Assembly: GCA_018819285.1 (NCBI GenBank) | Contig: JAHJQM010000058.1 | Span: 1-63,806, forward strand | DNA: 63,806 bases | From: Candidatus Omnitrophota bacterium | GTDB lineage: Bacteria > Omnitrophota > Gorgyraeia > Gorgyraeales > Gorgyraeaceae | Reading direction: 5' to 3' | Part shown: piece after piece, positions 51,792-63,766 of the stretch | How positions within the stretch are numbered: the stretch's first letter is position 1 | Layout of the letters: each line of letters begins with the position of its first letter | The notes under the pieces: generated by a model | The model's database searches: none | Seen by the model: only the letters and a program-made list of their open reading frames with translations | Told to the model about the DNA's origin: nothing | Position numbers and translations under genes: made by a program

Positions 51792-51869
51792 GGGCGGTTA
51801 GCTCAGTTGGCAGAGCGCTTCGTTTACACCGAAGAGGTTTCACAGGTTCGAGCCCTGTACCGCCCACCA
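51792..51869 (+). tRNA. tRNA-Val (anticodon TAC), CCA encoded
   Basis: Folded by hand. Acceptor GGGCGGT/ACCGCCC, D arm GCTC-AGTTGGCA-GAGC, anticodon arm CTTCG-TTTACAC-CGAAG and T arm ACAGG-TTCGAGC-CCTGT. The variable region is slightly long (AGGTTTC, 7 nt). Confidence 0.85.
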
Positions 51870-51879
51870 TTAAATATTT

Positions 51880-51956
51880 GGGGACGTAGTTCAGTTGGAT
51901 AGAACAATTGATTGTCGATCAATAGGTCGCGGGTTCGAGCCCCGTCGTCCCCGCCA
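51880..51956 (+). tRNA. tRNA-Asp (anticodon GTC), CCA encoded
   Basis: Acceptor GGGGACG/CGTCCCC, D arm GTTC-AGTTGGATA-GAAC, anticodon arm ATTGA-TTGTCGA-TCAAT, variable AGGTC and T arm GCGGG-TTCGAGC-CCCGT. Confidence 0.9.
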
Positions 51957-52105: not shown

Positions 52106-52139
52106 TTGCGAGACCGCCAAAGGCGGCCGAAGCAATCTC
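52102..52139 (+). repeat. GTCATTGCGAG...GAAGCAATCTC hairpin repeat, copy A (with inserted inner hairpin)
   Basis: GTCATTGCGAGACCGCCAAAGGCGGCCGAAGCAATCTC. The core arms are shared with copies B and C. The inner CCGCC-AAA-GGCGG hairpin replaces the short loop. Confidence 0.8.
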
Positions 52140-52197
52140 TAATATTCTTCAAGCGAGGCACCGAAGGTGCCGAGTCGAGAAGATAAATAAGGAACAC

Positions 52198-52653
52198 GTG
52201 AAAGGCTACCAATACCTAGAAAACGACTTCTTCGATCTCTGTAAAACCAGAGAAATAGGCCGTATCCCTATGCTCTTATATATCTACCTCCGCGGCCTCT
52301 ATTGCAGGTTCCAAAAGCCAATTTTCTTCTGCTTTGATAAGCAAATCAAGGATCATCTATGTATATCCCAAAGCACCTTATCCAGAGCAAGAGACTATTT
52401 ACAAAAACGAGGCGTTATTACCTATAAAAGCGGAAAAGGCACCCACCCTACTGAATATACCATGCTCGGCACAGTTCTCTTACCTGTCGTCAAAAAGACG
52501 ACACCGTATCGTCACACCCAAGCACAGAGGTATCGTCAAAATAACGACACCATATATACAAGTAAAGAAATATTAAAGAAGAAAGTAGGGATTATATTTC
52601 AAGGGATGAGTGATAAAGATAGAGATTTTTTGAAAACGAAAGGAATTTTGTAA
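52198..52653 (+). CDS. Winged-helix DNA-binding protein (phage/plasmid replication-organiser-like), hypothetical
   Basis: 151 aa with a GTG start. The segment LCISQSTLSRARDYLQKRGVITYKSGKG looks like a wHTH. Iteron-like repeats lie upstream. No family was verified. Confidence 0.4.
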   Translation: MKGYQYLENDFFDLCKTREIGRIPMLLYIYLRGLYCRFQKPIFFCFDKQIKDHLCISQSTLSRARDYLQKRGVITYKSGKGTHPTEYTMLGTVLLPVVKKTTPYRHTQAQRYRQNNDTIYTSKEILKKKVGIIFQGMSDKDRDFLKTKGIL

Positions 52654-52657
52654 CGCC

Positions 52658-52685
52658 GTCATTGCGAGCGAAGCGAAGCAATCTC
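52658..52685 (+). repeat. GTCATTGCGAG...GAAGCAATCTC hairpin repeat, copy B
   Basis: GTCATTGCGAGCGAAGCGAAGCAATCTC lies 5 nt after the stop of the 52198 ORF. Confidence 0.85.
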
Positions 52686-52692
52686 ATAAATT

Positions 52693-52926
52693 ATGGACTT
52701 TAGATTAAGAACCCTATTATATCCAAAAACATACTTCTGGATAGATGTTCTGTTTATCAGAGAGACACAAAAGGCTATCTTGATCGAGTTTGATGATAAA
52801 AAAGCATGGTTTCCTAAAGTGTGGGTTAGAAGAATAAAGCGGAATAAGAACATTTTTCGTCATTGCGAGCGAAACGAAGCAATCTCTATTAAAATATCTC
52901 AATTCCATTGGGAGAAAGAGTTTTGA
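52693..52926 (+). CDS. Small hypothetical protein (phage-like ...KAILIEFDDKKAWFPKVWV motif)
   Basis: 77-aa ORF. Its C-terminal RHCERNEAIS stretch is encoded by repeat copy C, so the true C-terminus is uncertain. Confidence 0.35.
   Translation: MDFRLRTLLYPKTYFWIDVLFIRETQKAILIEFDDKKAWFPKVWVRRIKRNKNIFRHCERNEAISIKISQFHWEKEF
52859..52886 (+). repeat. GTCATTGCGAG...GAAGCAATCTC hairpin repeat, copy C
   Basis: GTCATTGCGAGCGAAACGAAGCAATCTC has one substitution relative to copy B. Confidence 0.85.
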
Positions 52927-53000
52927 GTTTGTGATTCCTGTTTTTTTGCCTGTATAATATCTACACGGGCAACCATAGCCAATCATTCCACACACAACCT

Positions 53001-53213
53001 TTGAAGCTTTGGTTTAGAGCATCGCGCTATCCAGATAAGACTTTAGGACAGAGGATTCGCAAGCATAGATTAGAGAAAGGATTTAAACAAATAGATCTTG
53101 CGAAACGTTTAAAAGTAGACGAGGCGACTATTATTAATTGGGAGAAGGATAGAACAATACCAACTAATAGATATAGGGATAGGTTAAAGAAGTTTTTAGA
53201 TGTTCATCTGTAA
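53001..53213 (+). CDS. XRE-family helix-turn-helix transcriptional regulator
   Basis: LGQRIRKHRLEKGFKQIDLAKRLKVDEATIINWEKDRTIP is a classic Cro/CI-type HTH. It has a TTG start and no in-frame ATG, so the start is uncertain. A TATAAT lies at 52953-52958 upstream. Confidence 0.7.
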   Translation: MKLWFRASRYPDKTLGQRIRKHRLEKGFKQIDLAKRLKVDEATIINWEKDRTIPTNRYRDRLKKFLDVHL

Positions 53214-53305
53214 CTTACCCTACCATTTAATCTACATTATTTAGTATTTAAGAGAGAATATTATTATCATAGGAATCAAATCGATAAAATAAAGGGAGGT
53301 TTTTA

Positions 53306-53890
53306 ATGGCTAAGAGGGTTTTACCGAAAAAGAGTAATTCTGCTTTCAATGAGAACTTACCAATGGCAGATAAACAGGCTTTAGAAACAGAACAAACATC
53401 TCTTGAGAAGGCTTTGTCGCAGGATGCAAGTTTTGCTAAGGAAGTATTGAAAACGTTCTATCCGCAGGCAATTCCAATGTGCATTGAGGGGTTAGGAGCA
53501 GGGCCAGAAGCTACTGATAAAGGAAGGGATCTTTATGCCATTATAAAGATTGTAAGAGACGCATTAATGGAAGAAGATACACAGACAGATATAATAAATA
53601 AGATTTTAGCAGATATTATATCTGGAGCATATCAAGATAGAGTAATTGCTTATAGTAATAGTTGTGCTACAAATAATTCAGAAACAACACGGGCTATACA
53701 GCAAATGAGGCAATCAGCAGATAATCACTTATTATCTGTTATTCAGGCATTTAAGAATTTCAAACGCCCACCAGTGAATGTAATAGTAAAGCAAACCGAG
53801 CAAGTCAACATCGCAGATAAGCAGATTAATGTGACTAAGAAAGAAGATTCTCCAAGTGATTTAGACAGGAAAAATGAAGATATTAGTTGA
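53306..53890 (+). CDS. Hypothetical protein (no recognisable motif)
   Basis: 194-aa ORF preceded by AAGGGAGG. Its end overlaps the next ORF by 17 nt. Confidence 0.5.
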   Translation: MAKRVLPKKSNSAFNENLPMADKQALETEQTSLEKALSQDASFAKEVLKTFYPQAIPMCIEGLGAGPEATDKGRDLYAIIKIVRDALMEEDTQTDIINKILADIISGAYQDRVIAYSNSCATNNSETTRAIQQMRQSADNHLLSVIQAFKNFKRPPVNVIVKQTEQVNIADKQINVTKKEDSPSDLDRKNEDIS

Positions 53891-54281
53891 AGAGGTTGAT
53901 AGTATTCTTGCTCGTGAGGCAGGGAAAGCATTGCCAGAGAAATGCGAAACTGGAAAGGTTGAATTTGTGATTTCGGATTTATGGACACAAGAGGTTTGTA
54001 TTGTCTCTACACTTGGCAGATATGGCGGTTTTCTCCGATGGTTCATTTGTCCTGGCTGTAATCAAAGAGTAGGTAAGCTATATCTCCCAATAGGGAATCA
54101 TGCCTTTCTTTGCAGACATTGTTATAAGCTAGGTTACAGAGCTCAGTTTATAAGGGATTGTAGAAAGACAAGCAATAATAAGGAAAAAACAAAACGACAG
54201 AATAGACTTGAAATTTTAAAGCAATTGCAAGAGATGCTAAAGGGAAGAAAGCGAAAAACAAATAGAAAGGAGATGATATGA
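53874..54281 (+). CDS. Zinc-ribbon protein with basic C-terminal tail, hypothetical
   Basis: CPGCNQRVGKLYLPIGNHAFLCRHC (CxxC...CxxC), then a K/R-rich tail. ATGA overlap with the recombinase gene. Confidence 0.5.
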   Translation: MKILVEEVDSILAREAGKALPEKCETGKVEFVISDLWTQEVCIVSTLGRYGGFLRWFICPGCNQRVGKLYLPIGNHAFLCRHCYKLGYRAQFIRDCRKTSNNKEKTKRQNRLEILKQLQEMLKGRKRKTNRKEMI

Positions 54282-54835
54282 AAAAGGTAGCTTTGTATAT
54301 CAGAGTTTCTATGGCAGATCAGAACATAGAAACGCAAAAGATGGCTTTGGAGGATTATTGCAAGAGAATGGACTATGAGATAACAGATACCTATCAGGAC
54401 AATGGTTTTAGCGGTAAGAACGATAACAGGCCTGATTTTGAGCGTCTGCTGGCTGACGTAAGGGCAAATAAGATTGATTGCGTGCTTGTCTATAAGCTGG
54501 ATAGGATAGGGCGTTCTTTAAAGCATTTGCTTAATCTCTTTGAGGAATTTAAGAATCTTGGAGTAGAGTTCATATCTTTGACTCAGAATATCAATACTAA
54601 TACTCCGGAGGGTAAGATGTTCTGGCAGATGTTAGGGGTCTTTGCGGAGTATGAGCGAGAAATGATAGTAGCAAGGACTAAATCTGGGCTTGATAGGGCT
54701 AGAAAACAAGGTAAGACACTTGGTAGACCAAAAGGTAGCAAGGACAAGAAGATAAGAAATCTGTCAGGGTATTGGAGAAGATGGAGCGAGAAAAAGAGAG
54801 CCAAGGGTTTGCCTAGAGTCAGATCTTTACCTTGA
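54278..54835 (+). CDS. Small serine recombinase (resolvase/invertase catalytic domain) lacking a recognisable C-terminal HTH
   Basis: ALYIRVSMADQ (catalytic Ser), VYKLDRIGRS and FAEYEREMIVARTKSGL...GRPKG. The 27 residues after GRPKGSKDKK do not look like the usual HTH. Confidence 0.85.
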   Translation: MKKVALYIRVSMADQNIETQKMALEDYCKRMDYEITDTYQDNGFSGKNDNRPDFERLLADVRANKIDCVLVYKLDRIGRSLKHLLNLFEEFKNLGVEFISLTQNINTNTPEGKMFWQMLGVFAEYEREMIVARTKSGLDRARKQGKTLGRPKGSKDKKIRNLSGYWRRWSEKKRAKGLPRVRSLP

Positions 54836-54918
54836 TTGAAAATGGTTTGTATCTTTCAGCAAAAGAGGTATAATTAAACTTATAGAGTGTCTTCAAGTAG
54901 GATGGTTACAATAACTCG

Positions 54919-55617
54919 ATGAAACCAGAAGAAACAAAATCGTTAGCTAAGCAGTCTGCGACAGACAACATTCTAAATGCTGTAAAAGCTGCTATTTCTG
55001 CTATTCCATACGGCGGTGGAGTCGTTGCTTCATTAATAAGTGACTATATTCCTAAATCACGAGAAAAAAGGACGCTAGAATTTTTAAAAAAAGTAGCTGA
55101 AGATCTAGAATCCTTAAAAGGCATAGTCAACGAAAAGTATATACAATCTGAAGAATTTGAATATCTATTTCAAAAGGCATGGCGAGTAGCGGTTGAGCAC
55201 TATCAAAATGAAAAAGTGGAAGGATTTAGAGCTATATTAATCAACTCTGCTATTGGGAAGGAAGCAACGGCAGATGACAAAGACTTGTTTATTAATATAC
55301 TTAACGACCTTACAGGATATCACTTTCAAATGCTCAAGGTTTTCCAAGACCCAGTGGGATGGAATGCAAAAAATAGCAATAAAGTAAAAGGGGCTTCTAT
55401 GATGGCCTCTCTTAGTCAAATATTTAGAGAATGTTTTCCAGACTGGGGCGAAGAGAGGATAATCATAATTCTCGACGATTTATTTAACAAAAAATTGTGC
55501 ACTATATCTTCCGAACGTCTAAAAGTCATGATAAGTGGGGGCGGAATTGAGAAGTTTAATAATGCTCTTACACCTTTTGGAAGACGATTCATAGATTATG
55601 TTACATTTACTAAATAG
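54919..55617 (+). CDS. Uncharacterised soluble protein, candidate Abi-like sensor/partner (gene 1 of pair)
   Basis: 232 aa with no TM. The segment FRAILINSAIGKEATADDKDLFINILNDLTGYHFQMLKVF resembles Abi-alpha/DUF4393-type proteins from memory only. A TATAAT at 54869-54874 lies upstream. Confidence 0.4.
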   Translation: MKPEETKSLAKQSATDNILNAVKAAISAIPYGGGVVASLISDYIPKSREKRTLEFLKKVAEDLESLKGIVNEKYIQSEEFEYLFQKAWRVAVEHYQNEKVEGFRAILINSAIGKEATADDKDLFINILNDLTGYHFQMLKVFQDPVGWNAKNSNKVKGASMMASLSQIFRECFPDWGEERIIIILDDLFNKKLCTISSERLKVMISGGGIEKFNNALTPFGRRFIDYVTFTK

Positions 55618-55625
55618 GATACACA

Positions 55626-56336
55626 ATGTTTAATCAGGCACTTTATGCATTTATGGGAGCATTTTTTGCGTTTTTATTTGTGCGAATAGGAGAAATGCTA
55701 ACCAAGCTTTATGAGCGAGAAGTAAAAAATTATAATGCTTTAATTAGGCTTGAGTATTCTTGTAATGAAAATGTTGATAGTATCTCTAATAATATTTGGA
55801 TTATAGAAGATTTTGTTTCTATTATGGATGCTGGGTTAAATAGTAATCAACCAGTGATATATGCCAATAAGATGCATCTCATTAAATTTGATGATAACAT
55901 TTTATTAAATTTAAGCAGCATAGACTTTATAAACAAAATCTTCGATTTCAAGATAACATTAAGTAGAGTTAATAACGACATAGATACTCTCAACTCTATG
56001 GGAGAGAATTTTAAGGGTAATTTAATGCAAGGGAATATAAATTATGATACATATAAGATAAATATGCGTAATCTTATAGCCAAGTCGCTGGAACTCAAGA
56101 AATTCTTAAAAAGTCTAGAATCAAAAACTGTTGGAATAGTTGCCTGTGCTGAAGTTTTATCGAAGAAACAGAAGCCCCTTTTTACAAGAATTATGCACTT
56201 TATGTGTTGTAAAAGAGCATTTTCCAAAAAATTTGATGAAGAAGTTAAAGCACAGATTATTCAAATTGAGAAAGATAGAGCTCAGATATCAACAAAAAGC
56301 CAAGAAGAAATTAATGAGATTAAGCGAGGAGGTTAG
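55626..56336 (+). CDS. Uncharacterised N-terminally membrane-anchored protein (gene 2 of pair)
   Basis: 236 aa. One N-terminal TM helix (ALYAFMGAFFAFLFVRIG), then a Asn/Ile-rich soluble region and a charged C-terminal helix. It starts 8 nt after gene 1. Confidence 0.4.
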   Translation: MFNQALYAFMGAFFAFLFVRIGEMLTKLYEREVKNYNALIRLEYSCNENVDSISNNIWIIEDFVSIMDAGLNSNQPVIYANKMHLIKFDDNILLNLSSIDFINKIFDFKITLSRVNNDIDTLNSMGENFKGNLMQGNINYDTYKINMRNLIAKSLELKKFLKSLESKTVGIVACAEVLSKKQKPLFTRIMHFMCCKRAFSKKFDEEVKAQIIQIEKDRAQISTKSQEEINEIKRGG

Positions 56337-56518
56337 CCATTTAACATGTAGGGCGTTGTAAAACTCATCCCATACGAGAAGCAATTTCATAGTAAACAAT
56401 CCTCCCCCTATTATTTTTGTATATCCCAAGCATAAAAATACTATAATAAACAATCGTTCGATTATTTAATGGCTAAACAGCAGAAAAAGAGTAGGTAGCA
56501 AGCAATTCAAACTTGAAG

Positions 56519-56547
56519 TTGACAATGTATTACCACAATACTAAGAT
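56519..56547 (+). promoter_or_regulatory. Candidate promoter of the helicase gene
   Basis: TTGACA at 56519-56524, a 17-nt spacer, then TAAGAT at 56542-56547. An AGGTGG RBS and the ATG at 56597 follow. Confidence 0.45.
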
Positions 56548-56596
56548 GATTAGTATGATCGGTGCGTAAATATGGTAATTAAATAGGTGGAAAAAT

Positions 56597-58513
56597 ATGG
56601 CTTGGGATACTGGTTTAAGTGGAAAAACATTAGATATTGCTAGATACAACGGGCCTTCTCTGTGTATTTTTGCAGGACCGGGAACGGGGAAGACCTTTTC
56701 GCTAATGAGAAGGATTGCAAGATTACTAGAAGAGGGTGCTGACCCGGGGGAAATTTTATTGGTAACTTTTACACGGTTAGCCGCAAGAGACCTTATTAAA
56801 AAGGTAAATGAGCTAGGGATAGTTGGTGCTGAAAGAATAAATGCCACAACCTTGCACTCCCTGGCTTTCTCTATCCTTATTAGGACTAACGTTATGAGTG
56901 CGACTCAGAGAATTCCAAGATCAATATTGAAACACGAACAACTTCCTTTAATACATGACTTAAAGAAACAAGGGTTGGGGACTATTACAACACTGAGAAA
57001 GGATGTTAGAGCGTTTGAAAGTGCTTGGGCAAGATTGCAAGATGATGAGCCAGGATGGCCAACGAATGGACACGATAGAGCAGTAAATAATCATCTTCTG
57101 TCTTGGCTCAAGTTTCACAAAGCCATACTTATTGGAGAATTAGTGCCGCTTACCTTGAGATATTTGCGCAACAATCCTGTGAATGAATATTTGTCGAAAT
57201 TTGAACATGTAATTGTTGATGAATATCAAGACTTAAACAAGGCAGAGCAGGAATTGGTGAAAATTTTAGGAAGAAGTAGCAATATTACAATTGCAGGCGA
57301 TGATGATCAATCAATCTATAGTTTCAAATTTGCTCATCCAGAAGGTGTCATTGAATTTAGTTCAGATGTGCCAAATACTCACACTGAGATATTAGAAACT
57401 TGCCGTAGATGCCCAAAGAAAGTGATAATACTCGCCTCGAATCTGATACATAATAATTCTATAAGACATGAGAAAGCACTTTTGCCGCTTGATTCAAATC
57501 CAGATGGAGAAGTTATGATTTTGCAATGGCGAGGAATCAGAAAGGAAGCAAACGGAATTGCTCGTTTAGTAAAATACTATACAGAGGATGTGGGTATTCC
57601 GCTTGGACAAGTTCTTATTCTTGTTCAAAGGAAAGAATTGGCGAAGTATATAGAAGAAGAACTAGCTAGCTTACATATGTCTTATTCAAGTTATTATTCG
57701 GATAGTTCATTAGAGGATCCCGCACTAAGAAGTAAATATGCTTTGCTATGTTTACTCGCTGATTCAAATGATTTAGTAGCATTGCGTAATTGGCTAGCCG
57801 TAGATTCTTCAACTTTGAATGTGACCGAGTATTCCAAGTTAATGGCATATTGCCAACGTGAAGGGCGGTCTCCAAAAGAAGCTTTGGAAGGACTGGTTAA
57901 CCAGACTATTACAATCGCAGGCACTGAAAAAATAAAGAATAGCTACAATTTGTTAAATACGGAGATCGCTAGATTATCTGGACTTAGCGCAGAAGATGTA
58001 GTGAATGATTTGTTCCCGGAGGGCGAGGAGATTTTAAGTAGTCTTCGGAAACTAGCGTTATCAATAATTGCCTCCGGCATCACAACTGAGGAGCTTGCAA
58101 AGTCAGTAAGAGAACAGCTAATTCAGCCAGAGATAGAAGAGGAGCGGCTTGATATTAGTATAATGAGTCTCCATAAGGCTAAAGGATTAGAAGCAGAATT
58201 AGTTATCATAGCAAATTGTGTTGAGGGGTTATTGCCTTACATAGATAATTATGTGGGTTCTGTAGAGCAACAAAAACAACTTGAAGAGAGTCGTAGATTG
58301 TTTTATGTAGGGATGACCAGAACAAAACGCTATCTTATCTTATCAAATTGTACCTATATGAAAAAAGGAGACGCAATGGCCATGCGTGTTGGATATAGCG
58401 GTAGCGGCAGTAATGTTGCTCTTCAAACCAGTAGATTTATTTCAGAGGACTTGGGTCCTGAAAAGCCAGATGTAGAGCTTGGAGAAGATAAGCTTGCCGA
58501 GCTAGAGATTTAA
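56597..58513 (+). CDS. UvrD/PcrA/Rep-like superfamily 1 DNA helicase (short, stand-alone)
   Basis: Walker A AGPGTGKTF, motif II VDEYQDLN, motif III GDDDQSIYSF, and the C-terminal SLHKAKGLEAELVII and YVGMTRTKRYLIL. Confidence 0.9.
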   Translation: MAWDTGLSGKTLDIARYNGPSLCIFAGPGTGKTFSLMRRIARLLEEGADPGEILLVTFTRLAARDLIKKVNELGIVGAERINATTLHSLAFSILIRTNVMSATQRIPRSILKHEQLPLIHDLKKQGLGTITTLRKDVRAFESAWARLQDDEPGWPTNGHDRAVNNHLLSWLKFHKAILIGELVPLTLRYLRNNPVNEYLSKFEHVIVDEYQDLNKAEQELVKILGRSSNITIAGDDDQSIYSFKFAHPEGVIEFSSDVPNTHTEILETCRRCPKKVIILASNLIHNNSIRHEKALLPLDSNPDGEVMILQWRGIRKEANGIARLVKYYTEDVGIPLGQVLILVQRKELAKYIEEELASLHMSYSSYYSDSSLEDPALRSKYALLCLLADSNDLVALRNWLAVDSSTLNVTEYSKLMAYCQREGRSPKEALEGLVNQTITIAGTEKIKNSYNLLNTEIARLSGLSAEDVVNDLFPEGEEILSSLRKLALSIIASGITTEELAKSVREQLIQPEIEEERLDISIMSLHKAKGLEAELVIIANCVEGLLPYIDNYVGSVEQQKQLEESRRLFYVGMTRTKRYLILSNCTYMKKGDAMAMRVGYSGSGSNVALQTSRFISEDLGPEKPDVELGEDKLAELEI

Positions 58514-58596
58514 GTAAGCAGTGACCAACGGTGCTCAATGTTCGCCTAAGGTAGTATCTCAGCCTGTCCTATATTCTCCTTGACCTACTCCAAATA

Positions 58597-58614
58597 GTGT
58601 TATAAAGTGTTATA
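58597..58614 (+). promoter_or_regulatory. Tandem GTGTTATA operator-like repeat upstream of the HTH/hsdM genes
   Basis: GTGTTATA at 58597-58604 and 58607-58614. It ends 2 nt before the HTH gene ATG. A TTGACC lies at 58580-58585. Confidence 0.45.
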
Positions 58615-58616
58615 TT

Positions 58617-58799
58617 ATGACCCTCATACGAAACCTCGAAAAATATCGCCTTGAGCATAAAATTACCCAGGAACAACTCGCAAAAGAATTAGGTGTTGCA
58701 TTTGCTACTGTTAATCGCTGGCTGAATGGTAAGTATAAACCGAGAAAAATTCAGCAGTATCATATTGAAAAACTATTAAAAAGGGGGAACAGTGTTTGA
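58617..58799 (+). CDS. Small XRE-type HTH protein (controller-like) preceding hsdM
   Basis: [31 protein letters not shown] is a canonical HTH. 60 aa. Its end overlaps the hsdM GTG start by 8 nt. Confidence 0.7.
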
Positions 58800-60243
58800 G
58801 CAAACTTTTAAAAATATAGACGATATTCTTCACAAGGATGCCGGGTGCAGTAGCGAACTGGACTATGTGGAGCAGACCTCATGGATTCTTTTCCTGAAAT
58901 ATCTGGACGATCTTGAAAAGGATAAAAAAACTGCAGCAAAGCTGGCAAGCAAGACCTACTCAAACATCATTAGTTCGGAGTTTCAATGGGAAGTCTGGGC
59001 ATTTCCTAAAGACAAAGACGGTAAGCTTGATCATCATAAAGCGCTCACCGGAGATGATCTGAAGGATTTTGTTGACCATAAATTGTTTTCTTACTTGAAG
59101 AAGTTTAAGGTCGGTGCCGAAAGCGCCGACACTATCGAATACAAGATTGGTGAGATCTTTAGCGAGCTTAAAAACAGAATCCAGAGTGGCTATAATATGC
59201 GCGAAGTCATCAATTTAATAGATGATCTTCGTTTTCGTTCCCATGCTGAAAAACATGAGATGTCGCATCTGTATGAAGATAAGATTAAGAACATGGGTAA
59301 CGCGGGTAGAAACGGTGGAGAATATTACACGCCCCGGCCGCTTATTAAAACCATCGTTAAGGTTGTTGCGCCAGAAGTTGGAAGTAAGATTTATGATGGT
59401 GCGGTGGGTTCGGCAGGATTTTTGTGCGAAGCCTTTGAATATCTCAAAACCAGCAAGAACCTGACCACCAAAGACGCTGATACCTTACAGAAGAAAACTT
59501 TATATGGCAAAGAGAAAAAACCACTCGCCTACATTATCGGCACAATGAATATGATTTTGCACGGCGTAGAAGCTCCTAATATTGTGCATACAAACACGCT
59601 TGCCGAGAGCCTAGCTGATATTCAAGAAAAAGACCGATATGATATCGTTCTTGCTAATCCGCCTTTCGGCGGTAAGGAGCGCAAGGAAGTGCAGCAGAAC
59701 TTCCCCATAAAAAGTAGCGAAACAGCCTTTTTGTTTCTACAGCATTTCATTAAGATTCTAAAAGCTGGTGGTAGAGCTGGCGTGGTAATCAAGAATACTT
59801 TTCTTTCTAATACTGATAATGCTTCAGTTAGTTTGCGTAAACTGTTGCTGGAGAGTTGTAATTTACATACGATGCTTAATCTTCCTCGCGGTGTGTTTTC
59901 TGCAGGAGGGCAAACAGTAGTTCTTTTCTTTGAAAAGGGCATTCCAACAAGAAAGATTTGGTATTACAAGCTTGATCCTAAAAGAAACTTAGGTAAAACT
60001 AATTCGCTTAGTGAGAAAGATTTAGAAGAGTTTATGACGCTTCAAAAGACTAAAGCCAATTCTGACAATTCATGGGCAATTGATGTTTCCGACATTGATA
60101 AAGAAACATTTGATCTATCGGTGAATAATCCGCATAAGAAAGAAACAGTAGCCTTGCGTGAGCCAAAAAAGATTTTGGATGAGATGAAAGAGATGGATGA
60201 AGAAGCTGCGGAAATAATGAAGAGAATTCGAGGGTTGGTATGA
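58792..60243 (+). CDS. hsdM: Type I restriction-modification system methyltransferase subunit
   Basis: The HsdM N-terminal domain pattern ([12 protein letters not shown]), the SAM motif [11 protein letters not shown] and the catalytic [11 protein letters not shown] start after AAGGGGG. Confidence 0.9.
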
Positions 60244-61385
60244 AGCGCGGGTGGGAAGTAAAAAAAATATCCGAAATTGGTAATATATATAATGGCAATA
60301 GCATTAATGAAGAGGTTAAGAAAGATAAATATACTGGCATCAAAGATGGGCTACCTTACATAGCTACGAAAGATGTGAGTTATGAAAGTATTATCAATTA
60401 TGAAAATGGAGTTAAAATACCTTTTGAAGAAATAAGTTTATTCAAAATAGCTCCAAAAAATACTGTGTTAATATGTGCTGAGGGTGGGAGTGCTGGTAGA
60501 AAAATTGGTTTTACAAATCAAGATATTTGTTTTGGCAATAAATTATTTGCAACAACCACAAACAAAAATGCCGAAAGTCGTTTCGTATACTATTATTATT
60601 TTAGTTCAATCTTTCAGAAATATTTTTCAACTGAATTAGCAGGTCTTATTGGTGGTGTTTCGATGAATAAATTCAAGGATATCGAAATCCCCTTACCATC
60701 GCTCACTGAACAACAACGCATCGTAGCTGTTCTGGATAAGGTTTTTGTCACTTTGGCTAAGGCAAAGGAAAGCGTCGAAAAGAACCTGCAAAATAATCGT
60801 GAACTTTTTAATTCGTATCTGCAAAGTGTCTTTGTAGATTCTGGGATAGGCTGGGAAAAGAAGAAGCTGGGGGAGGTTGTAAAATTAGAATACGGAAAGC
60901 CTTTACCCGATGATAAAAGAATTCCAAATGGCAAATATCCGGTTTATGGTGCTAACGGGGAAAAAGATAGAACCGATGAATTTTATTATGATAAGCCAAG
61001 TATTATTGTGGGCCGAAAAGGTTCTGCTGGCGAGGTCAATCTTACTGAAAAAAGATTCTGGCCTTTAGATGTAACTTATTTTGTGACATTCGATGACAAG
61101 AAATACACCTTGGAGTTTCTCCATAATTTGCTATTAACACTTAATCTGCGAAAGCTTGCAAAGGGCGTAAAGCCGGGCATTAACCGCAATGAGGTTTATG
61201 AAATTAGAGTAAATATTCCGCCTATTCCCGAACAAAAACGCATTGTTGTAAAATTCGTTGCCCTTTCTGGTGAAACAAAGAAACTTGAAGCTATATACCA
61301 AAAGAAATTGATTGATCTTGAGGAATTGAAGAAGTCAATATTACAAAAAGCCTTTGCAGGTGAACTTACGGGAGCATGTTCATGA
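60240..61385 (+). CDS. hsdS: Type I restriction-modification system specificity subunit
   Basis: Two target-recognition halves, each followed by the conserved helix (PSLTEQQRIVAVLDKVF and PPIPEQKRIVVKFVAL). ATGA overlap with hsdM. Confidence 0.9.
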   Translation: MKRGWEVKKISEIGNIYNGNSINEEVKKDKYTGIKDGLPYIATKDVSYESIINYENGVKIPFEEISLFKIAPKNTVLICAEGGSAGRKIGFTNQDICFGNKLFATTTNKNAESRFVYYYYFSSIFQKYFSTELAGLIGGVSMNKFKDIEIPLPSLTEQQRIVAVLDKVFVTLAKAKESVEKNLQNNRELFNSYLQSVFVDSGIGWEKKKLGEVVKLEYGKPLPDDKRIPNGKYPVYGANGEKDRTDEFYYDKPSIIVGRKGSAGEVNLTEKRFWPLDVTYFVTFDDKKYTLEFLHNLLLTLNLRKLAKGVKPGINRNEVYEIRVNIPPIPEQKRIVVKFVALSGETKKLEAIYQKKLIDLEELKKSILQKAFAGELTGACS

Positions 61386-63766
61386 ACGAAGCCGAAACCA
61401 GAGCAGAATATATTGATCCTAAGCTAAAAGTCAGCGGTTGGGGCGTCTTAGATGGCACAAAAGTCCTGCGTGAATATAAAATTACTTTAGGGAAAATCCA
61501 AACTGGCGGAGGTCGCGCCAAACCTTTGAGCGCTGATTATGTGCTTGTTTATAAGGGCCGTAAACTTGCTGTTGTTGAGGCCAAGAGCGATGAGCAAGAG
61601 GTTGGCGAAGGTGTTGCCCAAGCTAAGAACTATGCTGAAATTATGCATCTTGATACTACCTATGCCAGTAATGGTAAAGAGATTTACCAAATCTGCATGA
61701 AAACCGGCAAGGAAGGGTTGCTTACCGATTTCCCATCACCTATTGATCTCTGGAATAAAACCTTTGCAATTCAAAATCAATGGCAAGATAAATTCAATCA
61801 GGTTCCATTTGAAGATGTTGGTGGCACAAAAGATGTTCGCTACTATCAAGAGATAGCCGTCAATAATACAATGAAAGCCATCGCTGATAACAAACAGCGT
61901 ATTTTGCTTACTATGGCAACAGGCACAGGCAAGACATTTATTGCCTTTCAAATAGCGTGGAAACTTTATCAAACTCGCTGGAACTTAAAGCGCGATGGAA
62001 GCCGCAGGCCACGTATCTTGTTTCTTACCGATAGAAATATCCTGGCTGATCAAGCATTCAACGCCTTTTCGGCATTTCCTGAAGACGCATTAGTGAGGAT
62101 AAGCCCCAAAGAGATCAGCAAAAAAGGTGGCGTTCCAACTAATGGCAGTATTTTCTTTACTATTTTTCAGACCTTTATGAGTGGTAAGGATAAAGATGGT
62201 AACTCTGCGCCTTATTTTGGTAGCTATCCGGCTGATTATTTTGACTTTATCATTATCGATGAATGTCATCGCGGCGGCGCAAACGATGAAGGTAATTGGC
62301 GCGGTATTATGGAATACTTTTCGCCTGCTGTTCAACTTGGCTTAACAGCTACACCCCGGCGCGAAGAGAACAGGGATACGTATGAATATTTTGGCGATCC
62401 GGTATACATCTATTCGCTTAAAGAGGGTATTAACGACGGATTTCTGACACCATTCAAAGTAAAACGGATCAAGACCACGATAGACGATTATGTCTATGTT
62501 TCGGATGACCAAATTATTGAAGGTGAGATAGAGCAAGGCAAAATCTATACAGAACCCGATTTTAATAGAATTATAGAGATCAAGGAGCGCGAAGCTAAGC
62601 GAGTGAAGATATTCCTTTCCGAAATTAATCAGAATGAAAAGTCTATTGTCTTTTGTGCAACACAGGATCATGCGATGGCGGTGCGGGATTTAGTCAACCA
62701 ATATAAACAAAGCAAAGAACCTAATTACTGCGTGCGCGTTACCGCTAATGATGGCGCATTGGGCGATCAATATCTACGCCAATTTCAGGATAACGAAAAG
62801 ACAACCCCAACAATTCTTACAACTTCGCAAAAGCTATCTACGGGTGTAGATGCTCGGAATATTCGCAATATTATACTCATGCGTCCGGTCAATTCAATGA
62901 TTGAGTTTAAGCAGATCATAGGTCGTGGCACACGGTTATTTGATGGGAAAGAGTATTTCACTATTTATGACTTTGTGGACGCGTATCATCATTTTGCTGA
63001 TCCAGAATGGGATGGCGAGCCTGTAGCCGAAGTTTGTGCTAAATGCGGTCAAGAGCCCTGTGTATGCGTAAAAAAACCGCCTCGGCTCTGTCCTGTATGT
63101 GGTAAAAGACCGTGTGAATGCATAAAAGAGCCACCTCCTATTTGTCCCAAGTGTGGGAAAAGTCCCTGTGAATGTCCTGCAAAAGTAAAAATAAAACTTC
63201 GAGATGGTAAAGAACGTGAAATTCAGCACATGATCTCGACCTCGTTTTGGAGTGCAGATGGTAAGCCGATTTCAGCAGAAGAGTTTGTGCAAGGAATGTT
63301 CGGCACTTTGCCGGAATTATTCAAAAGCGAAGCCGAGCTACGCAAGATCTGGTCTAATCCCATTACGCGCAAGGCATTGCTTGTAAAACTCTTCGATGCT
63401 GGATATGGTGCAGATGTTTTAGTTAGCTTACAGAAATTGATTAACGCTGAGAAAAGCGACCTATTTGATGTGCTCGAATATGTTTCCTTTGCCGTGAAGC
63501 CAATTACCAGGGAAATGCGAGTAGCTCAGGCGCAGTCGAGAATTTTTGAGGGATTAAATAATAAACAAAAAGAATTTTTGGAGTTTGTTCTCTCTAAATA
63601 CATTGAAACCGGTGTTGAGGAGCTTGATCAGGAGAAGCTCCCGGATCTTCTGACCCTGAAATATCAGGCAATACGTGATGCTGAAGAAATGCTGGGAGGT
63701 GTTGATAATATCCGCGCTACTTTTATTGATTTTCAAAAATATTTGTATGAGAAAGTAGTGGCATAA
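61376..63766 (+). CDS. hsdR: Type I restriction enzyme endonuclease/translocase subunit with C-terminal triple Cys-knuckle insert
   Basis: The N-terminal NEAETRAEYIDPKL nuclease-domain start. Helicase motifs MATGTGKTF, IIDECHRGG, GLTATPRR and QIIGRGTR. An EcoEI-R-type C-terminal region. Confidence 0.9.
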   Translation: MFMNEAETRAEYIDPKLKVSGWGVLDGTKVLREYKITLGKIQTGGGRAKPLSADYVLVYKGRKLAVVEAKSDEQEVGEGVAQAKNYAEIMHLDTTYASNGKEIYQICMKTGKEGLLTDFPSPIDLWNKTFAIQNQWQDKFNQVPFEDVGGTKDVRYYQEIAVNNTMKAIADNKQRILLTMATGTGKTFIAFQIAWKLYQTRWNLKRDGSRRPRILFLTDRNILADQAFNAFSAFPEDALVRISPKEISKKGGVPTNGSIFFTIFQTFMSGKDKDGNSAPYFGSYPADYFDFIIIDECHRGGANDEGNWRGIMEYFSPAVQLGLTATPRREENRDTYEYFGDPVYIYSLKEGINDGFLTPFKVKRIKTTIDDYVYVSDDQIIEGEIEQGKIYTEPDFNRIIEIKEREAKRVKIFLSEINQNEKSIVFCATQDHAMAVRDLVNQYKQSKEPNYCVRVTANDGALGDQYLRQFQDNEKTTPTILTTSQKLSTGVDARNIRNIILMRPVNSMIEFKQIIGRGTRLFDGKEYFTIYDFVDAYHHFADPEWDGEPVAEVCAKCGQEPCVCVKKPPRLCPVCGKRPCECIKEPPPICPKCGKSPCECPAKVKIKLRDGKEREIQHMISTSFWSADGKPISAEEFVQGMFGTLPELFKSEAELRKIWSNPITRKALLVKLFDAGYGADVLVSLQKLINAEKSDLFDVLEYVSFAVKPITREMRVAQAQSRIFEGLNNKQKEFLEFVLSKYIETGVEELDQEKLPDLLTLKYQAIRDAEEMLGGVDNIRATFIDFQKYLYEKVVA

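What the first reader, a model, noticed from the sequence alone, without database searches (positions are those of the whole stretch)
54919..56336. Uncharacterised two-gene cassette (soluble protein + N-terminally anchored membrane protein) in a defence-island context
- Two ORFs of 232 and 236 aa are separated by 8 nt and have their own TATAAT (54869-54874).
- They lie between a recombinase and a UvrD-like helicase plus type I R-M.
- Gene 1 has no TM helices. Its central region (FRAILINSAIGKEATADDKDLFINILNDLTGYHFQMLKVF) reminds me of Abi-alpha/DUF4393-type abortive-infection proteins, but this rests on memory alone.
- Gene 2 has a single N-terminal TM helix and an Asn/Ile-rich, coiled C-terminal part with no motif I recognise.
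- A sensor plus membrane effector is a common layout for abortive-infection systems, and defence genes cluster next to R-M systems.
- This is the best candidate in the window for an undescribed anti-phage module.
Basis: inference. Interest (0 to 1): 0.65.

Follow-up and report, generated by a model that had tools for sequence, protein, structure and literature searches.

The report
Abi-alpha-like gene plus membrane protein
Two tightly linked genes in a mobile defence island are a previously unrecognised distant relative of the Abi-alpha phage-defence protein and an unknown membrane-anchored protein; they probably act together against phages, but they are found together in no other genome sampled.

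Summary
Two intact ORFs of 232 and 236 aa lie 8 nt apart, and a Shine-Dalgarno sequence for gene 2 overlaps the stop codon of gene 1. They sit in a low-GC island next to tRNA genes, between a small serine recombinase and a GajB-like helicase plus type I R-M.

- **Gene 1.** It is a divergent relative of Abi_alpha (PF14337/DUF4393). Pfam, PADLOC and NCBIfam miss it. A profile of true Abi_alpha proteins scores it 12 bits, and 37 of 176 relatives reach 10 bits or more; reversed or shuffled controls reach at most 4.4.
- **Gene 2.** It has one N-terminal TM helix, which is its most conserved part, and a helical domain predicted to be cytoplasmic. It has no known relatives.
- **The pair.** It is not co-conserved. 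Similarity to every related locus ends at the border of one gene, and gene 2 relatives occur without gene 1 relatives.
- **Partners of the gene 1 family.** About half of these genes are followed closely by differing effector-type genes: TM proteins, TIR, RES, and GIY-YIG or HNH nucleases.

Best reading (about 45%): a co-transcribed module of sensor/regulator plus membrane effector of abortive-infection type. Main rival (about 35%): two independent single-gene cargo genes.

The parts
51792..51956 (+). tRNA-Val and tRNA-Asp; left boundary of the island that carries the pair
   Evidence: ARAGORN. GC falls from about 0.42-0.44 to 0.33-0.40 after this point.
54278..54835 (+). Small serine recombinase (resolvase) directly upstream of gene 1
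   Evidence: PF00239, E 6.8e-50. It is 48% identical to a resolvase on the contig that carries the gene 1 relative P0019.
54869..54874 (+). TATAAT hexamer, a possible -10 element for the pair
   Evidence: Present, but it has no good -35 and was not called by the scan. TATAAT is not enriched in the window. Weak.
54919..55617 (+). Gene 1: 232-aa all-alpha protein, a divergent member of the Abi_alpha (DUF4393) superfamily
   Evidence: ORF. 28 close clusters. 3,956 representatives at E<=1e-3. AF2 mean pLDDT 78.9, with residues 1-41 at low confidence. dN/dS 0.10.
55204..55512 (+). Abi_alpha-like core of gene 1 (residues about 96-198)
   Evidence: The Abi_alpha HMM (A4) aligns residues 96-169 at 12.0 bits, and relatives align over 97-198 at up to 21.8 bits; controls reach at most 4.4. 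Relatives hit PF14337 in the same register.
55616..55619 (+). AGGA Shine-Dalgarno for gene 2, overlapping the stop codon of gene 1
   Evidence: Read from the sequence. It lies 6 nt before the ATG at 55626.
55626..56336 (+). Gene 2: 236-aa protein with one N-terminal TM helix and a predicted cytoplasmic helical domain
   Evidence: ORF. 15 clusters. AF2 mean pLDDT 86.8, helices 2-72, 99-134, 140-181 and 201-235. No family or fold match.
55641..55694 (+). Conserved TM helix of gene 2 (residues about 6-23)
   Evidence: Eight of the 11 invariant columns of the family alignment lie here: A8 F9 G11 A12 F13 F14 A15 F18. Kyte-Doolittle maximum 1.63.
56597..58513 (+). UvrD-like helicase downstream (context; probably a separate unit)
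   Evidence: PF00580/PF13361. PADLOC GajB, E 1.2e-50. A 260-nt gap holds a TTGACA-17-TAAGAT promoter-like site at 56519-56547.
58617..63766 (+). HTH gene plus type I R-M genes hsdM, hsdS, hsdR (context)
   Evidence: Pfam N6_Mtase, Methylase_S, ResIII/EcoEI_R_C.

Best explanation
Gene 1 and gene 2 are cargo of a horizontally acquired island next to tRNA genes, and they are most likely transcribed and translated as one unit.

Gene 1 is a divergent member of the Abi_alpha (DUF4393) superfamily. The founding member of that superfamily, Abi-alpha of E. faecalis, aborts phage infection by premature lysis through an unknown mechanism.

I infer that gene 1 is the cytoplasmic sensor or regulator. Gene 2 would be the executing part: a membrane-anchored protein whose strictly conserved small-xxx-small TM helix oligomerises and damages the membrane once gene 1 is triggered by infection. 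The infected cell then dies or lyses before phage progeny mature.

Gene 2 is one of many interchangeable partners. Genes of the gene 1 family are followed by unrelated TM proteins, TIR or NDT-like proteins, a RES protein, or nucleases.

**Shown:** gene structure, coupling signals, remote homology, island context, variable partners.
**Inferred:** sensing, activation, membrane damage, and the anti-phage role itself.
For: **Coupling**
- The spacer is 8 nt, and the Shine-Dalgarno sequence of gene 2 overlaps the stop of gene 1.
- No terminator-like site lies between the genes.

**Abi_alpha homology**
- 15 of 83 sampled relatives hit PF14337; no other family had more than one hit. The best score is 26.2 bits against a cut-off of 29, in a consistent register.
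- An HMM of true Abi_alpha proteins scores 37 of 176 family members at 10 bits or more, and gene 1 at 12.0 bits. Reversed and shuffled controls reach at most 4.4 bits.
- The reciprocal test agrees: 23 of 120 Abi_alpha proteins reach 10 bits or more, against a control maximum of 4.5.
- Abi-alpha is an experimentally shown Abi gene (PMC6356687).

**Partners downstream of gene 1 relatives**
- Enzymatic: TIR_2 at gap 4; CAP12/Pycsar TIR, RES and GIY-YIG; HNH and a weak NDT-like hit.
- TM proteins: gap 0 (L012), gap 4 (L001, L004, L007), gap 8 (L058), gap 13 after an intervening small gene (L039).
- A gene 1-like gene plus an 82-aa TM gene moves as a two-gene unit between three unrelated flanks.

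**Gene 2 and context**
- The TM helix is the most conserved part of gene 2.
- The setting is an island with R-M and a GajB-like helicase. Both genes are absent from four same-genus genomes, and the pair has the lowest GC in the region.
Against: - The pair occurs nowhere else. The closest gene 1 relative (84% identity) has no gene 2 behind it.
- Gene 2 relatives at 61%, 59% and 48% identity sit beside other genes: DUF6602, HEPN_RiboL-PSP, a large serine recombinase.
- Homology ends at single-gene borders.
- About half of the gene 1 family loci have no closely linked downstream gene. One relative looks like a single integron-type cassette.
- Canonical Abi-alpha works as a single gene.
- Gene 1 does not reach the Pfam threshold, and profile-profile hhalign is only marginally better than unrelated controls.
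- There is no physical or expression evidence.
- Both structure models match nothing informative.
Confidence: 0.45

Rival explanations
1. These are two independent single-gene cargo units that happen to be adjacent. Gene 1 would be a self-sufficient Abi-alpha-type defence gene. Gene 2 would be an unrelated stand-alone membrane protein, for example one acting in superinfection exclusion or abortive infection. Each is shuffled separately among islands and recombinase-borne elements.
For: - Homology to related loci ends at the borders of gene 1 or of gene 2.
- Gene 2 relatives occur without any gene 1-like neighbour in 5 contexts. One sits alone between an excisionase-like HTH gene and a large serine recombinase.
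- Gene 1 relatives stand alone in a Pseudomonas phage and as a cassette in a Vibrio plasmid array.
- About half of the loci have gaps over 100 nt to the next gene.
- Abi-alpha alone confers the phenotype (PMC6356687).
- Earlier follow-ups in this scan reached this verdict for other Abi-alpha neighbour pairs. That is a lead only.
Against: - The 8-nt spacer, with the Shine-Dalgarno sequence overlapping the stop and no terminator-like site between the genes, argues for co-expression.
- At least 7 distinct architectures have gaps of 8 nt or less to unrelated effector-type genes.
- The two-gene unit that moves together in Bacteroidota argues against pure coincidence.
- RES and TIR-only proteins normally need a partner. 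This rests on established knowledge of RES-Xre and Thoeris systems.
Confidence: 0.35
2. This is a toxin-antitoxin-like addiction or stabilisation module of the island. Gene 2 would be a membrane toxin. Gene 1 would be its antitoxin or transcriptional repressor, acting through a C-terminal winged-helix-like region. The main role would be keeping the island, not defence.
For: - Gene 1 relatives occupy the upstream 'antitoxin' position before a RES-domain protein and before small TM peptides.
- The C-terminus of gene 1 gives weak hits to CARF-associated HTH (E 0.11) and to Csa3.
- The pair lies directly beside the island's recombinase.
Against: - The HTH hits are far below threshold.
- Neither protein matches a known TA family.
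- Many gene 1 relatives have no partner at all.
- TA and Abi roles are not mutually exclusive, so this reading overlaps with the best explanation.
Confidence: 0.1
3. The genes have a non-defence function. They would be regulatory or membrane-associated housekeeping genes of the mobile element, acting in transfer, replication control or envelope stress, with the Abi_alpha similarity reflecting only a shared helical scaffold.
For: - Some gene 1 relatives lie among ordinary metabolic or housekeeping genes.
- No fold or motif reveals a biochemical activity.
Against: - Distribution is patchy: 5 of 401 genomes of the phylum for gene 1 and 2 of 401 for gene 2.
- The genes associate with R-M, KAP NTPase, caspase, PIN, Fic, Gabija-like and HEPN genes.
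- The partner genes are of effector type.
- The only characterised member of the superfamily is an Abi protein.
Confidence: 0.07

Closest known systems
Abi-alpha (AbiAlpha; EF2833 of Enterococcus faecalis V583 prophage 6; Pfam PF14337 Abi_alpha, formerly DUF4393)
   Same: - Gene 1 has a similar size (232 aa against 272 aa in EF2833 and about 240-260 aa in the true Abi_alpha proteins sampled here) and an all-alpha prediction.
- It aligns collinearly over most of its length, with a shared core: '...F/W-x-x-x-L-x-x-S...(acidic loop)...L-F-I/x-N-x-L-x-x-L-T...'.
- It lies on mobile or defence DNA.
   Different: - Gene 1 is below the Pfam gathering score: no hit for gene 1 itself, and 26.2 bits at best for relatives against a cut-off of 29.
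- PADLOC misses it.
- It belongs to a large separate branch of at least 1,422 representatives at E<=1e-10.
- Abi-alpha acts as a single gene. Gene 1 is translationally linked to a membrane protein, and its relatives are linked to varied effector genes.
- No phenotype has been tested.
RexA/RexB of phage lambda (cytoplasmic sensor plus membrane ion-channel effector). This comparison rests on my own knowledge.
   Same: The proposed working logic is the same: a soluble protein controls a membrane protein, and the loss of membrane potential aborts infection. Both are two adjacent co-transcribed genes on a mobile element.
   Different: No sequence or fold similarity was detected. RexB has four TM helices, whereas gene 2 has one TM helix plus a large cytoplasmic helical domain. 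The trigger and the stoichiometry are unknown here.
Transmembrane effectors of signalling defence systems (CBASS Cap14/Cap15, Pycsar TM effectors, Thoeris-type TM effectors). This comparison rests on my own knowledge.
   Same: The effector repertoire is interchangeable (TM, TIR, nuclease) behind a conserved upstream component, as seen for the gene 1 family. One partner carries the CAP12/Pycsar TIR domain PF10137.
   Different: No cyclase, signal-making TIR or nucleotide-sensing domain lies near the pair. Gene 1 has no nucleotidyltransferase features.
Gabija (GajA OLD-family nuclease plus GajB UvrD-like helicase)
   Same: The gene directly downstream (56597-58513) matches the PADLOC GajB models at E 1.2e-50.
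   Different: There is no GajA. Neither gene 1 nor gene 2 has ATPase, TOPRIM or OLD features. The helicase lies behind a 260-nt gap with its own promoter-like site. It is only 30% identical, over 90 aa, to the helicase of the Gabija-like pair (OLD-type ATPase plus UvrD helicase) found near a gene 2 relative.

Membership tests
Abi_alpha (PF14337 / DUF4393; AbiAlpha) | Match to the Pfam model at or above its gathering score (29 bits) | tested here: not met
   Gene 1 has no PF14337 hit at E<=1. The best relative scores 26.2 bits, and the others 16.5-17 bits. There is no hit in the whole genome either.
Abi_alpha (PF14337 / DUF4393; AbiAlpha) | Demonstrable homology to true family members, shown by profile searches with controls | tested here: met
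   - 15 of 83 relatives hit PF14337 at E<0.01; no other family had more than one hit.
- The A4 HMM scores gene 1 at 12.0 bits and 37 of 176 relatives at 10 bits or more. Reversed and shuffled sequences reach at most 4.4 bits.
- The reciprocal A1 HMM scores 23 of 120 Abi_alpha proteins at 10 bits or more, against a control maximum of 4.5.
- hhalign alone is weak: E 0.005 against 0.02-0.03 for unrelated controls.
Abi_alpha (PF14337 / DUF4393; AbiAlpha) | Single gene sufficient for abortive infection with premature lysis | not testable with these tools
   This is known for EF2833 only (PMC6356687). It needs expression and phage assays.
Abi_alpha (PF14337 / DUF4393; AbiAlpha) | Location on prophages, plasmids or defence islands, with patchy distribution | tested here: met
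   - The island is next to tRNA genes and carries a recombinase, R-M and a GajB-like helicase.
- The family is present in 5 of 401 genomes of the phylum and in none of 4 same-genus genomes.
- Relatives lie on plasmids and on a phage.
Gabija | GajA (OLD-family ATPase-TOPRIM nuclease) adjacent to GajB | tested here: not met
   Only the helicase matches GajB. Gene 1 and gene 2 have no hits in PADLOC, Pfam or NCBIfam.
Signalling systems with TM effectors (CBASS, Pycsar, Thoeris) | A nucleotide-signal generator (CD-NTase, pyrimidine cyclase or ThsB-type TIR) in the operon | tested here: not met
   No such domain is present in 52198-63766. PADLOC gives no hits for gene 1 or gene 2.
Phage holins or known superinfection-exclusion membrane proteins | Sequence match of gene 2 to a phage protein family, or occurrence in phage genomes | tested here: not met
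   The best PHROG E-value is 0.098. There is no tblastn match in 50,697 phage records or in the plasmid collection, and none in IMG/VR.
Conserved two-gene system (gene 1 plus gene 2) | Co-occurrence of the two families as neighbours in other genomes | tested here: not met
   - None of about 30 gene 1 family loci has a gene 2 relative.
- None of 5 independent gene 2 contexts has a gene 1-like neighbour.
- In 401 genomes, only the window's own genome has both families.

The most novel reading that the evidence does not exclude
The gene 1 family would be a large, unannotated branch of the Abi_alpha superfamily, with at least 1,400 clusters at 50% identity. It would be the conserved sensor or regulator subunit of a modular class of abortive-infection systems. 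This subunit would be plugged in front of interchangeable killing modules: single-pass and multi-pass membrane proteins, TIR/NDT-like NADases, RES toxins, and GIY-YIG or HNH nucleases. Gene 2 would define a new membrane effector family that kills through its invariant TM helix. If so, the long-unknown mechanism of Abi-alpha would be that of a trigger or adaptor, not of an effector.
Probability: 0.3. Interest if true: 0.7.

Novelty: new variant of a known kind. Interest (0 to 1): 0.47.

Why it matters
- **A branch that tools miss.** Abi-alpha is a validated abortive-infection gene whose mechanism is still unknown (PMC6356687; bioRxiv 10.1101/2025.10.23.684294). Gene 1 shows that a large branch of the same superfamily escapes Pfam and PADLOC, so defence inventories of uncultured lineages undercount it.
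- **A mechanistic lead.** Members of this branch repeatedly sit, often translationally coupled, in front of unrelated effector-type genes. This gives a testable idea: Abi_alpha-like proteins may be sensors or adaptors that control a separate killing module.
- **A new effector candidate.** Gene 2, with a TM helix more conserved than the rest of the protein, is a candidate for a new membrane effector family.
- **If the rival is right.** If the genes are independent cargo, the finding is an ordinary addition to the known picture of mix-and-match defence islands.

Tried and rejected
- **Direct family assignment.** Pfam, PADLOC, NCBIfam and PHROGs gave nothing significant for either protein. The exception is phrog_26838 (unknown function) for gene 1, at E 2.7e-15.
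- **Structure.**
  - The AF2 models are of good quality (mean pLDDT 78.9 and 86.8).
  - Foldseek against PDB and BFVD returned only generic helical bundles, with no E<=0.001.
  - Profile searches of PDB sequences found nothing. PDB 3H35, which the Abi-alpha paper mentions, did not appear.
- **hhalign as proof of homology.** Rejected as sufficient on its own. E 0.005 is only about 5-fold better than unrelated controls. I replaced it with HMM searches against reversed and shuffled controls.
- **Pairwise phmmer.** One Abi_alpha protein searched against the gene 1 family gave nothing significant.
- **Three-gene system with the helicase.** Rejected. There is a 260-nt gap with its own promoter-like site. 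The helicase of the Gabija-like pair near a gene 2 relative is only 30% identical to it over 90 aa.
- **Abi_alpha-like neighbours of gene 2 relatives.** Rejected, since all HMM scores were 6 bits or less.
- **Shared ancestry among partner proteins.** All-against-all BLASTP of 16 partners found no pair at E<=0.01.
- **Gene 2 in other collections.** No relatives were found in phages, plasmids or IMG/VR.
- **Neighbourhood scan of 111 neighbours of gene 1 relatives.** The content is mixed. It includes methylases, resolvases, KAP NTPases, Fic and a caspase, but also RNA polymerase, ribosomal protein S12 and metabolic enzymes. Defence enrichment is therefore suggestive, not demonstrated.
Full report
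**1. The observation**

Two ORFs lie on the + strand at 54919-55617 (232 aa) and 55626-56336 (236 aa).
- The spacer is 8 nt.
- An AGGA at 55616-55619 overlaps the TAG stop of gene 1 and lies 6 nt before the ATG of gene 2.
- The scan found no terminator-like site anywhere in 54700-56700. It did call four + strand promoter-like hexamer pairs inside gene 1 and one inside gene 2, at 9-10 of 12 matches, with 14 sites in the region against 7.5 expected.

The TATAAT at 54869-54874 is there but is weak evidence.
- It has no usable -35 hexamer and was not called by the scan.
- TATAAT occurs 121 times in the window against 108 +/- 10 expected by chance.

Both genes are real.
- Gene 1 against its closest relative (83% nucleotide identity over 690 nt) gives dN/dS 0.10.
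- Both genes have full-length homologues.

- Gene 1 has no TM-grade segment. The highest Kyte-Doolittle mean is 1.45, at residues 22-40.
- Gene 2 has one N-terminal hydrophobic helix and is rich in Ile and Asn.

**2. The setting**

The pair lies in an island that begins after tRNA-Val and tRNA-Asp (51792-51956). The island carries:
- small HTH genes;
- a small serine recombinase directly upstream of gene 1 (PF00239, E 7e-50);
- a UvrD-like helicase that matches the PADLOC GajB models (E 1.2e-50) but has no GajA;
- an HTH gene plus type I R-M.

GC is 0.33 over the pair, against about 0.42-0.44 in the ATPase genes before the tRNAs.

In a sample of 401 genomes of the phylum, the gene 1 family is in 5 genomes and the gene 2 family in 2. 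Neither is in the four other genomes of the same genus, and only this genome has both. The pair is therefore accessory, horizontally acquired DNA in a defence-type neighbourhood.

**3. What gene 1 is**

Direct scans of Pfam, PADLOC and NCBIfam give nothing. PHROGs gives phrog_26838, of unknown function, at E 2.7e-15.

The word-index search found only 28 clusters. A profile search of 1.84 billion representatives found far more: 3,956 at E<=1e-3 and 1,422 at E<=1e-10. The family is large but unannotated.

Several results link it to Abi_alpha.
- Of 83 sampled members, 15 hit Pfam PF14337 (Abi_alpha, formerly DUF4393) at E<0.01. No other family was hit more than once.
- The detailed hits are below the gathering score (best 26.2 bits against 29). 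They share one register, which places the Pfam domain at about residues 55-198 of gene 1.
- I built an alignment of true PF14337 proteins. Profile-profile hhalign gave a collinear alignment of 202 columns at E 0.005.
- Unrelated control pairs gave E 0.02-0.03 over 21-56 columns, so I do not rely on hhalign.
- The controlled HMM test is clear. The Abi_alpha HMM scores 37 of 176 gene 1 family proteins at 10 bits or more (top 21.8). Gene 1 itself scores 12.0 bits over residues 96-169. Reversed or shuffled versions reach at most 4.4 bits.
- The reverse test agrees. The gene 1 HMM scores 23 of 120 Abi_alpha proteins at 10 bits or more, against a control maximum of 4.5.

Gene 1 is thus a divergent member of the Abi_alpha superfamily that fails the curated family threshold.

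Abi-alpha (EF2833, 272 aa, E. faecalis V583 prophage 6) is a single gene that aborts infection with premature lysis (PMC6356687). Its mechanism was still unknown in late 2025.

The AF2 model of gene 1 is all-alpha (mean pLDDT 78.9). The conserved, Gly-rich, moderately hydrophobic N-terminus (residues 1-41) is unresolved. It matches no solved or viral predicted structure.

**4. What gene 2 is**

Only 15 clusters were found. There is no hit in any family library, and no relative in phage records, plasmids or IMG/VR.

The AF2 model (mean pLDDT 86.8) shows a TM helix that continues into a long helix (2-72). Helices 99-134, 140-181 and 201-235 follow. Only generic helical bundles resemble it.

Basic residues follow the TM helix. 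More distant relatives carry one extra N-terminal TM helix, which fits a cytoplasmic location for the helical domain. That topology is an inference.

Eight of the 11 invariant alignment columns lie in the TM helix: A8 F9 G11 A12 F13 F14 A15 F18. A mere anchor would not be conserved like this. The small-xxx-small pattern suggests helix-helix packing in the membrane, which is also an inference.

**5. Are they a pair?**

Not by conservation.
- The 84%-identical relative of gene 1 has no gene 2 behind it.
- Gene 2 relatives at 61%, 59% and 48% identity sit in other places:
  - after an R-M-type helicase and before DUF6602 and a Gabija-like pair (OLD-type ATPase plus UvrD helicase);
  - after a C5 methylase and an HhH-GPD gene and before a HEPN_RiboL-PSP protein;
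  - alone between an excisionase-like HTH gene and a large serine recombinase.
- None of their neighbours resembles gene 1 or Abi_alpha.
- Translated comparison of the window with nine related loci shows similarity only to gene 1 or only to gene 2. The sole exception is the catalytic domains of serine recombinases, which recur next to both families.

So each gene is its own shuffling unit.

**6. The pattern around the gene 1 family**

The gene downstream of gene 1 relatives is repeatedly of effector type and often tightly coupled.

| Downstream partner | Gap (nt) |
|---|---|
| TIR_2 protein | 4 |
| CAP12/Pycsar-type TIR | 168 |
| RES-domain protein | 23 |
| GIY-YIG protein | 177 |
| HNH protein | 209 |
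| 130-aa protein, then a weak NDT-like 322-aa protein | 4, then 16 |
| 6-TM protein | 0 |
| 127-aa protein, then a multi-TM 390-aa protein | 30, then 13 |
| 199-aa protein with one N-terminal TM helix (XRE HTH gene in front) | 8 |
| 59-aa TM peptide | 43 |
| 82-aa two-TM protein | 4 |

The partners are unrelated to one another.

The 82-aa case is informative. In three Bacteroidota contexts, similarity covers exactly the two genes and nothing in the flanks. That pair therefore moves as a unit.

Roughly half of about 30 loci, however, have no close downstream gene. Examples are a solitary copy in a Pseudomonas phage and a cassette-like copy in a Vibrio plasmid array. The wider neighbourhoods mix R-M, KAP NTPase, caspase, PIN and Fic genes with ordinary housekeeping genes.

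**7. Interpretation**

The best-supported reading (about 45%) is this. Gene 1 and gene 2 are co-expressed and form a two-part module of abortive-infection type. The Abi_alpha-like protein senses or regulates, and the membrane protein executes. Gene 2 would be one of many exchangeable partners.

The main rival (about 35%) is that they are two independent single-gene cargo units placed side by side. This is consistent with:
- the single-gene borders of homology;
- the solitary occurrences of both families;
- the single-gene sufficiency of Abi-alpha.

Earlier follow-ups in this scan reached that verdict for other Abi-alpha neighbour pairs. I treated this as a lead, not as evidence.

A toxin-antitoxin-like stabilisation role (about 10%) and a non-defence role (about 7%) remain possible.

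No step of the mechanism has been shown. The shown steps are gene structure, coupling signals, homology, context and partner variability.

**8. Novelty and limits**

- Gene 1 is a new, divergent member of a known superfamily.
- The coupling of this branch to separate, swappable effector genes is not described in the papers I could search.
- Gene 2 is a family without annotation.

I therefore rate the finding as a new variant of a known kind, of moderate interest.

Limits:
- Structure jobs were capped, so no complex could be modelled.
- The partner census rests on about 30 loci, not on the whole family.

Noticed in passing
window 56597-58513: A 638-aa UvrD-like helicase matches the PADLOC GajB models (E 1.2e-50) but has no GajA/OLD partner nearby. 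It has its own promoter-like site (TTGACA-17-TAAGAT at 56519-56547). It may be an orphan or differently partnered GajB-like defence helicase.
   Followed up: partly
window 52139-52185: A segment of about 45 nt just inside the island matches dozens of places in every genome of the same genus searched, at 80-95% identity. It behaves like a dispersed REP- or MITE-like repeat.
   Followed up: no
L001 8947-9057 versus L004 7757-7928: A short sequence lies just downstream of the two-gene unit (gene 1-like plus 82-aa TM gene) in one genome and just upstream of the same unit in another. It may mark the boundary repeat of a small mobile cassette.
   Followed up: no
L039 1187-1771, L014 1993-2394, L040 1269-2901, and window 54278-54835: Serine recombinases recur next to relatives of both gene 1 and gene 2. 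They are 48%, 42% and 39% identical to the window's resolvase in the catalytic domain. Both families may travel as cargo of serine-recombinase elements.
   Followed up: partly
L049 (Vibrio europaeus plasmid pVEu) 3971-4600: A gene 1 relative sits in an array of short genes interspersed with DUF3265 micro-ORFs. To my knowledge this is the usual look of a Vibrio integron cassette array, so the relative would be a single-gene cassette.
   Followed up: no
L030 5134-9769 and L031 6657-7331: Gene 2 relatives are followed by a DUF6602 protein plus a Gabija-like OLD/UvrD pair in one contig, and by a HEPN_RiboL-PSP protein in another. The gene 2 family may itself pair with variable enzymatic partners.
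   Followed up: no
L038 1022-1756: A HARE-HTH plus PD-(D/E)XK nuclease protein (244 aa) has a stop that overlaps the start of a gene 1 relative of 75% identity. This gives a four-gene string: nuclease, gene 1-like, a 130-aa protein, and an NDT-like protein.
   Followed up: no
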